61,461 bases of DNA, filler included, from Leucoraja ocellata (GCA_036785375.1; 5 parts of 5 records of this genome joined end to end with filler, not necessarily neighbours in it), one strand, 5' to 3'. Counted from the first letter of the whole stretch, positions 35,747-39,848 are shown. Notes: generated by a model not told the origin, from the sequence alone. Program-made: numbers and translations.

Positions 35747-36630
35747 CTGCAAGGCAAAGGCCACATGAATGTTAAACTCGTTAACCAGTTTTCTATTTCA
35801 TGCAACTTCACCTGAGTATCATCAACTATTAGCTAATCATTCCGCCTTGATCCCACCTTGGAAAACATTGGCTGAAAACTTCTTGAGGTGCCAATATCTG
35901 CCAGTTACTGTCCATATTAGAGTTGGAAATATATCGATAGGCCTCCAGTATTAATTACTGTAAAATTCCCAGGGTTTCTCAGGAATGCTCAATACTCAGT
36001 GGCTATAACTAACGTTGGCCTATGGGTTACAATCTCACCAAACTCCTTGTTGCAACTGGGGATGATGGAGTAAGGGCAGAACTACAGGATACAGTGTAGA
36101 CACGTGTGAGAGCCTCGTCTATGGGGAAAGTGGGGAATACCCGCTCCCTAAAGAATGAGGACCTCGGATATCCTGGTATGGAACAACTCGTCTTGGGAAC
36201 AGTTGCACGGAGACGGATGAATTTGGGAGTAGGACATAGAGCCTTTGCAGGAGGCAAGGTTGGAAGAGGTGAAGTCCTGATAGCTGTGGGAGTCCGTAGA
36301 TTTGCAATTTATGTCAGTCGATAGTCTAACTCCTGCGATGGAGACGGTGAGATCAACAAAGAGGAGGTATGTGTTGGGGATGGACCCGGTGAATTTGATC
36401 TATGATCAAAGTTTGTAGACAATGAAGTCAATGAGTTCTGTCTGGGTACAGGATGAAGAGTTCGGGGATAGGGGCCAGTCTGTGTCAGGGGTTGTTCCAT
36501 GTACCCAACTAAATGGAGATTGGTGAAATGATGCGCAATGTTGGAAACAACATTTTCTTTGCTATTTGAATTATAGAACAGATGTTCCACTAATCCGTGA
36601 ACAGTGGGAATTGGAATCAATGGTTCAAAG

Positions 36631-36679
36631 GAGGGTTTGACTGACGTTCAAAATTACATTTGCATTTATTTAATTAAAA
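36631..36679. promoter_or_regulatory. Candidate intronic enhancer core, copy 1: TGACGTTCA (CRE-like) + Ig octamer ATTTGCAT (36658-36665)
   Basis: Perfect octamer in the JH-Cmu1 intron; 47/49 identical to the inverted copy at 37714-37762. Confidence 0.5.
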
Positions 36680-37713
36680 TTAAATAATTTAGGTAGGTTT
36701 CGCTTGGGCCACTGTGCATGCCCATGGCGAAATTTTTGATTTGGAGGGAGAGGGAAGAGTTATTGTTTTATAAATGTGTTCAGAGATCATCTGACAAAAT
36801 CACAGAAAATGGAGGGTAACAGGTTTTCCATGTCGGGCTCCCGAACATAATTTGGGAGAAGACAAAAATAAACAATCACAATCTTGTTCGTGAAATTTGG
36901 CCTTAAATGTGTCCATCGGACGAAACCAACTAAGGGGGTGGATGGGATTGAAATGGTAGCTCTGTTATTTAACAACAAACAACACGCTTAAAATGTCACT
37001 TTTTTCTGTATTTTGTTGGCCCATCACTCACGAGAATATAACGATCATTTGTATGCCGACAGTAATTGCAAGTAAATTCCGAAACGCAAACCGGCCGACA
37101 AGAACATTACATTCACACCAGATTAAACACATGTGTGAGATTGCATTATAAGGATTAAAAATAACTCTCTCAATATAATATCTGAATTAATAGAGGTTAT
37201 GTACCACGACTTCTGGAAACTAAATGTAGCATATACATTGTAAGAACATGCAGGTATATGGGACTAGGGGAGATTATGTGTTCGGCACGGACTAGAAGGG
37301 TCGAGATGGCCTGTTTCCGTGCTGTAATTGTTATATGGTTATATGGTTATATGTAAATACTTCATAATTAAATAAATTGGTACAGGTTTCAATGTTTGTC
37401 TGTGTGCACCATTGCCTTAATGAATGCAATAATAATCCATTGAAATGAATGTTTATACAATGACGCTCAGTTCCGTTTCCAGCATCTTTAAACGAGTTTA
37501 CGTTCCCAATGTCATCGGCACTGAAGAACGAATGATTAACATTGTATCTCTGTCCGATAGGAAACGAATAAAAAATATACCAATTATAAATTACAACCTG
37601 CAATCTATTAAAACAATATCTGAGTTTGCTTCGTGACTTTAACAGGAAAAGGTTTTAAGTCATATAGTAGTCTACGTTTAATAGTGAAAATGCACAATGT
37701 TGCTAAATCAATG

Positions 37714-37762
37714 TTTTAATTAAATAAATGCAAATGTAAATTTGAACGTCACTCAAACCCTC
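37714..37762. promoter_or_regulatory. Candidate intronic enhancer core, copy 2 (inverted): octamer ATGCAAAT 37728-37735 + CRE-like site
   Basis: Reverse complement of 36631-36679 with 2 mismatches. Confidence 0.5.
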
Positions 37763-39848
37763 CCCTAAGCCACCGATTTCAATTCCCACTCTGTTCAAGG
37801 ATTAGTGAGATACCCTGTTTTATAATTAAAATTAAGATAGCAAAGTCAGGGGATATGGGGAGAAGGCGGGAACGGGGTACTGATTGGGGAAGATCAGCCA
37901 TGATCACATTGAATAGCGGTGCTGACTCAAAGACCGAATGGCCTACTCCTGCACCTATTGTCTATTGTCTAAAATAGCAGAGAAAATTTAGTTTCCAACA
38001 TTACATTTTATTTCCCAATTTTTCTTTTTTTTTTACCGTAACTATTCGTAAAACTGATATTTTTCATTAGCAATTTACTAATTAGAGAAACATTTTATGT
38101 TTAAATGACATTGGGAGCCACAGACAAACATGGATTCAAAATCTCTTTCTAATAAATCCATGGATTAAACGTTATTCCAAAACTACAACTGTTCCGAAAT
38201 CTCCCCATTATACATTCAACGCATTTTCCAAATGGGAAAAATCGTGTTCTTTGACATAAAACAGGTTAGGCAGCAACTGTGGAATGAGAAAACCAAGCAT
38301 TTTCCATGTCGACTATCATTGGGGGACTAAACCATGGCGAATTCAGTAGAGGTATAGCATAGAAATAGACCCTTCTGCCAACAAAATCCAGGGCCACTCA
38401 CAAGTTCCACGTTATCACACTATCGCATTCACCCCCGACCCACCCGGGTCAATCACCCAGGTCATTTAACCTGCAAACCTGCACTCTTTTGGGTTGTGGG
38501 AGGGAAGCTGAGCACCAGTAAGAAACCACAGGGAGAACGCACAGTTCTCACCGTCTGCACCTGATTTCGGGAACGAAGTCTGGTCTCTGGCGCTACAACT
38601 TGTCATTCGGCTCCCCTCTATGGGACTTGTCTTTCGCCACAGGCTGCGTGACCCTCTAGGCGTTTGCAACATTTACTGTTCCTATTTATGATTTCTAGTA
38701 ATATATTCTTATTTTTATTTTTAAACATATATCTTCTTTGCGTTCATTGAAATAACATAATCGGACAACAGAAATACCCGGTCGCTGCCACTCGAATTGA
38801 ACGTACAAACACGTCAAACTGCGCAACAATATCGTTTCCCACAGTGACCGGCTGAATCATACCGCCGATGGGATGAATCACATAACACAAATTTGCTGAA
38901 CCTCCACAAACATCCAAATATCTCTGTCTAAACACCACCGAAATTCATTGTTCCAATGACCACAGAGCCAATCATTGTTGAAATAAAGATGAATAACACA
39001 ATACACGTGGATTAACATTTCCATATAATGTGAATTTCCTTCAGTTCCTCTGTACCCCAGTACACCCGGTACATTGTCATTCTATAGATCGCGTTTCACG
39101 GATTTTGCTTTCTTAGCTTTGCTGTAACATTGGTTCACATGGCCAACTCATTGTACTTCAAGATAGACAAAACAAGTTGGAGTAACTCAGCGGGAGAGGC
39201 AGAGTTACTCCAGCTTTGTGTCAATCGGCAGCGTAAATCAGCATCCACTATTCCTTCCTATTCATTGTACTTCAAGATATATAACTGCGCAATTAACCCT
39301 GACCCTTGCACTTCTGTGTTTTGCTGCAAGATATTTTTACTTCTTCCATGCAAGTTTTGTTAGCGATTGGATTAAAGGTGGCAAGGCGATTTCACCAATT
39401 AATACATACACTTTAAAAACTTGAACATTTTACACCCAGGATTTATCCGTTACTATGTTTGTTTCATATGTGCTGAGAAGAAACAAACTGAAACCAAGTA
39501 CCTGCTGTTGATTAGAAAATACAGTTCGATGCATCGCAGATCAAGGACCACAAACAATCTCAAACAATTAGAAAGCATAGTGAAAGCAAATCGATGCAAC
39601 ATTTTCCACTAATTTGGAACTAAACCGCATCCACTTCATAGTCAAAGGATCGAAAGTCATAGCACATAAGGCGTTTAAATCGGCAATCTCACTGCAGCAA
39701 AATCACATAACGTTCTAAAGCAACATCGATCCAACATTGCAATGAATGGGTAATTAATGTAGAAGAACAATTTAATATAATTATTGGAAATATAGGTTAA
39801 AATTACAACTGGATACATCTAGAGACTGAATAGGATGAAGTTTCTTAC

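What the first reader, a model, noticed from the sequence alone, without database searches (positions are those of the whole stretch)
36519..38020. Inverted duplication in the JH-Cmu intron preserving an octamer + CRE-like core: candidate palindromic E-mu enhancer
Seen: ~36519-36679 is repeated in reverse orientation at ~37714-38020, and the second arm is split by a CR1 3' end at ~37833-37970. The outer arms are visibly diverged, but the 49-nt core GAGGGTTTGA(C/G)TGACGTTCAAA(A/T)TTACATTTGCATTTATTTAATTAAAA has only 2 mismatches and a perfect Ig octamer. Established: octamer sites drive Ig enhancers, mammalian E-mu lies in this intron, the mammalian IgH 3' regulatory region is quasi-palindromic, and shark VH promoters lack the octamer. 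Inference: selective conservation of the core points to a B-cell enhancer supplying the octamer input missing from the promoter.
Basis: partly seen in the sequence, partly recalled or inferred. Interest (0 to 1): 0.75.

Follow-up and report, generated by a model that had tools for sequence, protein, structure and literature searches.

The report
Twin-octamer inverted repeat in IgM intron
An antibody heavy-chain gene of a cartilaginous fish has, in its first large intron, an old mirror-image duplication of about 160 bases that carries two copies of the classic B-cell "octamer" switch; it is a plausible but unproven candidate for the enhancer of these genes.

Summary
In the 4.1-kb JH-Cmu intron of an apparently intact IgM cluster (minus strand), 36519-36679 is repeated in inverted orientation at 37714-38020. 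The arms match at 134 of 161 columns, lie 1034 nt apart, and the second is split by a CR1 fragment. Each arm has a perfect octamer, and the VH promoter has none. The 49-nt core has 2 mismatches.

Once the after-the-fact choice of the core is allowed for, its extra conservation is not significant (p 0.08-0.35). Octamer-anchored tests are borderline (p 0.01-0.68). The "CRE" is a half-site, and E-box and Ets sites are not enriched. No transposase remnant, outer target-site duplication or third copy was found in the window, but the genome-wide transposon test could not be run.

Most likely this is a local inverted duplication of an octamer-bearing intronic enhancer module, with the palindrome incidental (0.42). 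Rivals are a neutral duplication with chance or gene conversion (0.28), a decayed TIR element (0.20), and a selected 3'RR-like palindrome (0.10). It is a testable candidate, not a demonstrated enhancer.

The parts
36519..36679 (.). Left (Cmu-proximal) arm of the inverted duplication; the outer ~18 nt are poorly matched and abut a retroelement remnant
36631..36679 (.). Best-conserved block of the left arm (2 mismatches in 49; last 26 nt identical), with a TGACG half-site at 36642
36658..36665 (-). Perfect Ig octamer, left copy
36680..37713 (.). 1034-nt spacer; no residual inverted symmetry, no Pfam hit, no enrichment of E-box, Ets or kB motifs
37249..37352 (+). Young CR1-type 3' end inside the spacer (93 of 93 identical to 22688-22780); the CR1 label is recalled from the translated ORF2 ends of its window copies
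37714..37832 (.). Right arm, inner part (contains the core at 37714-37762)
37728..37735 (+). Perfect Ig octamer, right copy, overlapped by a variant ATGTAAAT at 37734 that the left arm lacks
   Evidence: the variant is functional in catfish Emu3' (PMC1800861)
37846..37969 (.). 5'-truncated CR1-type fragment inserted into the right arm after the duplication, with target-site-like direct repeats starting at 37833 and 37970; older subfamily
37976..38020 (.). Right arm, outer part
36046..36520 (-). Degraded retroelement coding remnant abutting the left arm and probably truncating it; Penelope-like by my recall of the translation only, with no database confirmation and approximate ends
   Evidence: translation; no Pfam hit
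35747..39848 (-). JH-Cmu1 intron (4102 nt) that hosts the repeat; the octamers lie 2.1 and 3.2 kb downstream of the JH donor
39849..41559 (-). Leader, VH (open frame), D1, D2 and JH with RSS spacers 23 / 12-22 / 12-12 / 23; the D2 5' RSS has a deviant nonamer and was not picked up by the scan
25990..35746 (-). Cmu1-Cmu4 with secretory tail and TM1 exon, all open frames (lower coordinate approximate)

Best explanation
A segment of at least 160 nt of the JH-Cmu intron, bearing an octamer site, was copied locally in inverted orientation about 1 kb away (shown). A staggered-break inversion of the spacer or a template switch is the likely origin (inferred). A CR1 fragment later inserted into one copy (shown by the target-site-like repeats and its absence from the other arm), and the other copy was probably cut back at its outer end by another retroelement (inferred). 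Most of the duplicate has drifted. The octamer and some 20-25 nt on either side have changed less, probably because both copies bind Oct1/Oct2, with OCA-B, and act as a two-site intronic enhancer module on the octamer-less VH promoter 2-3 kb away after VDJ joining (inferred). The mirror-image geometry is a by-product of the duplication, not a requirement.
For: The position matches mammalian Emu and the host cluster looks intact. The only 2 perfect octamers between 29689 and 49214 are these two; the chance per arm is about 0.011 and per intron about 0.21. The promoter has no octamer (PMC2435157). With the octamer itself excluded, its flanks are better conserved than the rest of the arm at intermediate flank sizes (p 0.011-0.058 for 14-30 nt with the 36519 boundary). 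Of 4 CpG positions, only the one in the core survives in both arms. Both core mismatches fall outside the octamer and the TGACG half-site. Two octamer sites form the core of the catfish IgH enhancer (PMC1800861), and an OCA-B orthologue is reported in shark (PMC13043367). No third copy of the arm occurs in 61 kb. Inverted duplications of unique sequence accompanied 17 of 29 Drosophila inversions (PMC1885836 abstract).
Against: Core conservation is not significant after correcting for window choice (p 0.08-0.35), and the 26-nt perfect run has p 0.12. Anchored p values rise to 0.045-0.68 with the 36537 boundary and are above 0.09 at flank sizes 5, 10 and 40. Both octamers would survive by chance with probability 0.21-0.30. 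There are no E2A-type E-boxes (0 seen, 0.6 expected), no PU.1 sites (0 vs 0.8) and no kB or RUNX sites in the arms and spacer. There is no full CRE. The other 3 octamers in the window match the chance expectation of 2.4. Other local inverted pairs of 80-100 nt exist in the same window. No cross-cluster, cross-species or functional data were available.
Confidence: 0.42

Rival explanations
1. Neutral local inverted duplication with no regulatory role. The high identity of the inner block is a chance run or the trace of a gene-conversion tract between the arms, and the octamer is an accident of AT-rich sequence.
For: Variable-window p is 0.08-0.35 and longest-run p is 0.12. Identity is patchy, with an 89% block far from the octamer. 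Under the conservative CR1 clock a 2-in-49 window has probability about 0.5. There are 1-2 other local inverted pairs in the window, giving a 7-14% chance of one in a 4-kb intron. The perfect run ends exactly at the homology boundary. No cofactor motifs are enriched.
Against: It needs a roughly 1% coincidence of a perfect octamer in the duplicated unit, in the intron where an IgH enhancer is expected. It also needs the best-conserved stretch to centre on that octamer.
Confidence: 0.28
2. The arms are the long terminal inverted repeats of a decayed non-autonomous DNA transposon of about 1.27 kb before the CR1 insertions. The core is element sequence unrelated to Ig control.
For: The size and geometry fit a non-autonomous element. 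About 37% of the window is covered by repeats. The left outer end is obscured by a retroelement remnant, so the lack of a target-site duplication does not exclude it.
Against: There is no other copy of the arm in the window (next best local score 27) and no other hit for the spacer apart from its CR1. Six read-through frames gave 0 Pfam families. Only 4-5-nt chance matches flank the outer ends. Identity is highest at the inner ends, not the outer.
Confidence: 0.2
3. One reading: the palindromic architecture itself is selected, as in the mammalian IgH 3'RR where hs3a and hs3b are inverted enhancer copies around a central enhancer. It would support hypermutation or cluster activation.
For: Two inverted copies each keep an octamer. 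In mouse, breaking the 3'RR palindrome halves SHM even when the enhancers are kept (PMC4757795).
Against: The arms are 83% identical against 97% for hs3a/hs3b, and span 1.5 kb against 25 kb. A 124-nt CR1 was tolerated in one arm. The spacer has no inverted symmetry (score -82 vs shuffle mean -62) and inward extension is not significant (p 0.29). The spacer has no motif cluster that could be a central enhancer. G.U-compatible mismatches show no strand bias (8 vs 9), so there is no sign of selection on an RNA stem.
Confidence: 0.1

Closest known systems
Mammalian IgH intronic enhancer Emu
   Same: Lies in the JH-Cmu intron; has a perfect octamer; AT-rich surroundings.
   Different: Emu has a single octamer that is not within its core (PMC1800861). 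The core is built from E-box and Ets sites (recalled) and flanked by MARs (PMC9971809). Here there are two inverted octamers 1062 nt apart and no E-box or Ets enrichment. Activity is untested.
Catfish IgH enhancer Emu3'
   Same: Its core has two octamer motifs, including the ATGTAAAT variant that also overlaps the right-arm octamer here.
   Different: Emu3' lies 3' of the IgM gene and includes a muE5 site. This element is 5' of Cmu and has no E2A-type E-box in arms or spacer.
Mouse IgH 3' regulatory region (hs3a-hs1,2-hs3b quasi-palindrome)
   Same: Inverted duplicate copies of a putative enhancer module in an IgH locus.
   Different: It lies 3' of the constant genes, spans about 25 kb, has 97% identical hs3 copies, inverted intervening sequences and a central enhancer (PMC4757795; PMC9936319). 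Here the span is 1.5 kb, identity is 83%, and the spacer is asymmetric with no evident central enhancer.
Inverted duplications at staggered-break inversion breakpoints
   Same: Inverted copies of otherwise unique sequence flank an internal segment (PMC1885836 abstract).
   Different: Described in Drosophila for much larger inversions. Inversion of this spacer cannot be shown without a sister cluster as outgroup.

Membership tests
IgH intronic enhancer (Emu type) | Located between JH and Cmu1 | tested here: met
   Intron 35747-39848; CH4 plus tail matches IgM best
IgH intronic enhancer (Emu type) | Consensus octamer | tested here: met
   36658-36665 and 37728-37735
IgH intronic enhancer (Emu type) | Clustered E-box and Ets (muE, muA, muB) sites forming the core (feature list recalled) | tested here: not met
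   E2A-type 0, PU.1 0, muE3-type 2 vs 0.8 expected (p 0.18), CATCTG 2 vs 0.5 (p 0.12) in arms plus spacer; one muB-like 9-mer at 36851. Consensus strings only, no weight matrices.
IgH intronic enhancer (Emu type) | Sequence constraint on the binding sites | tested here: inconclusive
   p 0.01-0.68 depending on test and boundary
IgH intronic enhancer (Emu type) | Flanking matrix attachment regions | not tested
   No MAR analysis was run
IgH intronic enhancer (Emu type) | B-cell-specific accessibility and orientation-independent activation | not testable with these tools
   Needs ATAC-seq and reporter assays
IgH 3'RR quasi-palindrome | Position 3' of the constant genes | tested here: not met
   The element is 5' of Cmu1
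IgH 3'RR quasi-palindrome | Inverted copies of a motif-bearing module | tested here: met
   (83% identity; enhancer status unproven)
IgH 3'RR quasi-palindrome | Inverted intervening sequences around a central enhancer | tested here: not met
   No spacer symmetry; no motif cluster
IgH 3'RR quasi-palindrome | Architecture conserved across species | not testable with these tools
   No eukaryotic DNA collection was available
Non-autonomous TIR DNA transposon | Terminal inverted repeats | tested here: met
   Inverted arms of at least 160 nt
Non-autonomous TIR DNA transposon | Target-site duplication at the outer ends | tested here: inconclusive
   Only 4-5-nt matches; the left end is obscured by another element
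Non-autonomous TIR DNA transposon | Transposase remnant inside | tested here: not met
   0 Pfam families in 6 of 6 frames; not required for a non-autonomous element, and the test is weak on decayed DNA
Non-autonomous TIR DNA transposon | Dispersed copies in the genome | tested here: inconclusive
   None in the 61-kb window; the genome was not searchable

The most novel reading that the evidence does not exclude
Cartilaginous-fish IgM clusters compensate for their octamer-less VH promoters with a compact palindromic twin-octamer enhancer in the JH-Cmu intron, shared across clusters. This would make the inverted-copy architecture of IgH enhancers far older than mammals, or independently evolved. 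It would also name the cis-element at which the limiting factors proposed for one-cluster-at-a-time activation compete.
Probability: 0.1. Interest if true: 0.75.

Novelty: new member of a known kind. Interest (0 to 1): 0.38.

Why it matters
Shark IgH genes lack the promoter octamer, and their cluster-by-cluster activation has been attributed to rare formation of a promoter-enhancer complex (PMC2435157, passages). My searches of the open library found no paper that locates an IgH enhancer in a cartilaginous fish, and none that prints the core motif. Most primary shark Ig papers are in journals the library lacks, so this is weak evidence of novelty. A defined 1.5-kb candidate with two mutable octamers makes the question directly testable. 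It also bears on whether the JH-Cmu position (mammals) or the 3' position (catfish) is ancestral. If the repeat is neutral or a transposon, it is ordinary.

Tried and rejected
Assembly artefact: rejected; the arms differ at 27 of 161 columns, one carries an insertion, and the intron has no N.
Structured RNA family: 1 Rfam match at E up to 1, a nematode snoRNA at 23.7 bits against a gathering score of 44, rejected as chance.
Local hairpin at the left core: z -0.51.
Selected pre-mRNA stem: no strand bias in G.U-compatible mismatches (8 vs 9).
Longer palindrome: no continuation beyond the left-flank retroelement (score 19, 82% of shuffles as high), no significant inward extension (p 0.29) and no spacer symmetry.
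Dating by the CR1 insert: 16 of 119 positions differ from the majority of 14 other window copies, but 10 of the 16 are shared with other copies, leaving 6 private; the neutral expectation therefore ranges from 11 to 25% and the test does not decide.
Spacer as an insertion into a once-perfect hairpin: suggested by a 10-nt fold-back at 36666-36687 and the same 10-mer at 37718-37727 (and my reading); not pursued, because AT-rich slippage explains it as well.
Identity of the left-flank retroelement: not confirmed by any database call.
PMC2192082: only 9,779 characters are held and none of the four terms occurs in them. The three supplements of PMC2435157 could not be read and might bear on locus sequence.
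The bacterial, phage and plasmid collections were not searched, as they are irrelevant to a vertebrate intron.

Full report
Setting. The window holds one cluster-type immunoglobulin heavy-chain gene on the minus strand, the V-D-D-J-C organisation typical of cartilaginous fishes (PMC3308330, passages). The leader starts at 41559, the V exon runs from 41340 to an RSS at 41036, two D segments lie near 40630 and 40300, JH ends at a donor at 39848, and the first C exon starts at 35746. Four C exons and a TM exon follow, all with open frames. Three C exons were scanned against Pfam and are C1-set domains. The fourth, with its tail, matches IgM chains best among solved structures: 8 of the top 9 rows are named Ig mu (E 1e-45 or better) and the first is unnamed. 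The host intron is therefore JH-Cmu, 4102 nt long, in an apparently intact gene.

The observation. The inverted repeat is real. BLAST finds it in two pieces. Together the arms 36519-36679 and 37714-38020 match at 134 of 161 ungapped columns, 1034 nt apart. The inverted alignment score is 143 against at most 37 in 200 shuffles. The right arm is interrupted by a 124-nt fragment (37846-37969) with 14 other copies in the window, flanked by short direct repeats, so it inserted after the duplication. Its copies continue into frames that I recognise from memory as CR1 ORF2 ends. A second, much younger CR1 end sits in the spacer. The 49-nt core has 2 mismatches and a perfect octamer in each arm. The VH promoter has no octamer within one mismatch in 41300-41940, in line with the statement that shark IgH genes lack it (PMC2435157, passages). 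An N gap starts at 41945, so only about 380 nt upstream of the leader could be read.

Is the core selectively conserved? The naive contrast, 2 of 49 against 28 of 120, gives p 0.002, but the core was chosen after the fact. Scanning a fixed 49-nt window gives p 0.02-0.17 over four outer boundaries and two composition strata. Letting the length vary gives p 0.08-0.35, and the 26-nt perfect run has p 0.12. Much of the contrast comes from the outermost 18 nt (10 of 18 identical), which abut a degraded retroelement and may not all belong to the arm. The next 27 nt are 89% identical, far from the octamer. A fairer test anchors the window on the octamer and leaves the octamer out. It gives p 0.011-0.058 for flanks of 14-30 nt with the outer boundary at 36519, p 0.045-0.19 with the boundary at 36537, and p 0.09-0.68 for flanks of 5, 10 and 40 nt (14 tests, uncorrected). 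The CR1 insert as an outside clock does not decide: p 0.015 if all 16 of 119 differences count, about 0.5 if only the 6 private ones do. One of 4 CpG positions survives in both arms, the one in the core. In all, the signal is suggestive, and two sequences cannot separate selection from gene conversion.

Motif content. The octamer is the real asset: the chance is about 0.011 per arm and 0.21 per intron. The other 3 octamers in the window match expectation (2.4). The right arm also has an overlapping ATGTAAAT variant, a form bound by catfish Oct1 in Emu3' (PMC1800861, passages), but the left arm lacks it. The 'CRE-like' site is a TGACG half-site, of which the window has 53. The intron has no full CRE or decamer. 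None of 9 consensus patterns tested is enriched in arms plus spacer (lowest p 0.12), and E2A, PU.1, RUNX, EBF and kB patterns are absent. The consensus patterns were recalled, not taken from a motif library.

Origin. The arm has no third copy in the window (next best score 27). The spacer has no hit apart from its CR1. Six frames read through stops gave no Pfam family, and the outer ends have no convincing target-site duplication. This favours a local event over a dispersed element, but only 61 kb could be searched and the left end is obscured. Local inverted pairs are not rare here: 13251-13346/13641-13737 (72%) and 60320-60399/60888-60967 (94%, with partial matches to other repeats) are two others (one search showed 25 of 62 pairs). 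That gives a 7-14% chance of one in an intron of this size. Staggered-break inversions are a known source of such duplications (17 of 29 inversions; PMC1885836, abstract only). The palindrome does not extend inward or outward, there is no sign of selection on an RNA stem, and there is no Rfam family.

Most likely mechanism. Shown: the duplication, its order relative to the CR1, the twin octamers, the octamer-less promoter and the intact host gene. Inferred: that the octamer block was already an intronic enhancer module, that both copies bind Oct1/Oct2 with OCA-B (an orthologue is reported in shark; PMC13043367, passages), and that they act on the VH promoter. I put this at 0.42, with the palindrome incidental. 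The rivals are a neutral duplication with chance or conversion (0.28), a decayed TIR element (0.20) and a selected 3'RR-like palindrome (0.10). These figures are judgements, not computed values.

Comparison with known systems. It may work like Emu or catfish Emu3', but it should not be filed as either. The E-box/Ets core is not met and activity is untested. Mammalian Emu has a single octamer outside its core, while the catfish core has two octamers plus muE5 and lies 3' of the gene. It is not a 3'RR member: that structure lies 3' of the constant genes, spans about 25 kb, and has 97% identical hs3 copies with inverted intervening sequence around a central enhancer (PMC4757795, passages; PMC9936319, passages). 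PMC9971809 (passages) supplied the MAR feature. PMC2193156 (passages) shows octamers at shark light-chain genes only.

Novelty. Seven topical searches (listings and abstract starts) and one search for a 16-nt core motif (0 papers) found no description of this element or of a mapped IgH enhancer in a cartilaginous fish. The library lacks most subscription journals, where the primary shark and skate Ig sequence papers appeared, and the supplements of PMC2435157 were unreadable, so prior description is not excluded. Verdict: a real, apparently undescribed feature and a reasonable enhancer candidate of a known kind. The evidence for selection is borderline and the transposon alternative is unchecked genome-wide. 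Interest 0.38.

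Noticed in passing
window 44410-44622 and 48409-48678 (minus strand), against the IgM leader at 41559: An MHC class I-like gene (alpha2 exon PF00129, E 1e-24; best PDB hit 6lup_A, E 1e-32; C1-set alpha3 exon) lies about 3 kb upstream of the IgM cluster on the same strand. PMC10751288 (passages) reports no class Ib genes outside the elasmobranch MHC, so a true IgM-class I linkage could be more notable than the finding itself. 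N gaps at 41945-42144 and 43121-43220 lie between them, so mis-scaffolding is possible. The alpha1 and TM exons were not located.
   Followed up: partly
window 44661-47888: A G-rich 14-nt tandem array of about 228 copies fills the intron between the class I alpha2 and alpha3 exons.
   Followed up: no
window 8728-8967 and 15632-15829 (plus strand): A V-set exon and a CD80-like C2-set exon suggest a B7/butyrophilin-like gene, tail to tail with the IgM cluster.
   Followed up: partly
window 50966-51298 (plus strand): A V-set exon with a below-cut-off match to the CD22 first Ig domain, Siglec-like.
   Followed up: partly
window 36666-36687 and 37718-37727: A 10-nt fold-back palindrome sits at the inner end of the left arm, and the same 10-mer recurs at the inner end of the right arm; it could mark a template-switch origin or be AT-rich slippage.
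   Followed up: partly
window 60320-60967 and 13251-13737: Two other local inverted pairs with 80-97-nt arms around repeat-containing spacers.
   Followed up: partly
window 19212: A single perfect octamer lies about 7 kb 3' of the TM1 exon, on the side where teleost Emu3' lies; one isolated site, consistent with chance.
   Followed up: no
window 1863-2032, 19389-19591, 42145-42283, 39160-39226: Copies of a short, internally palindromic repeat family of about 140-200 nt occur throughout the window, including a fragment in the JH-Cmu intron.
   Followed up: no
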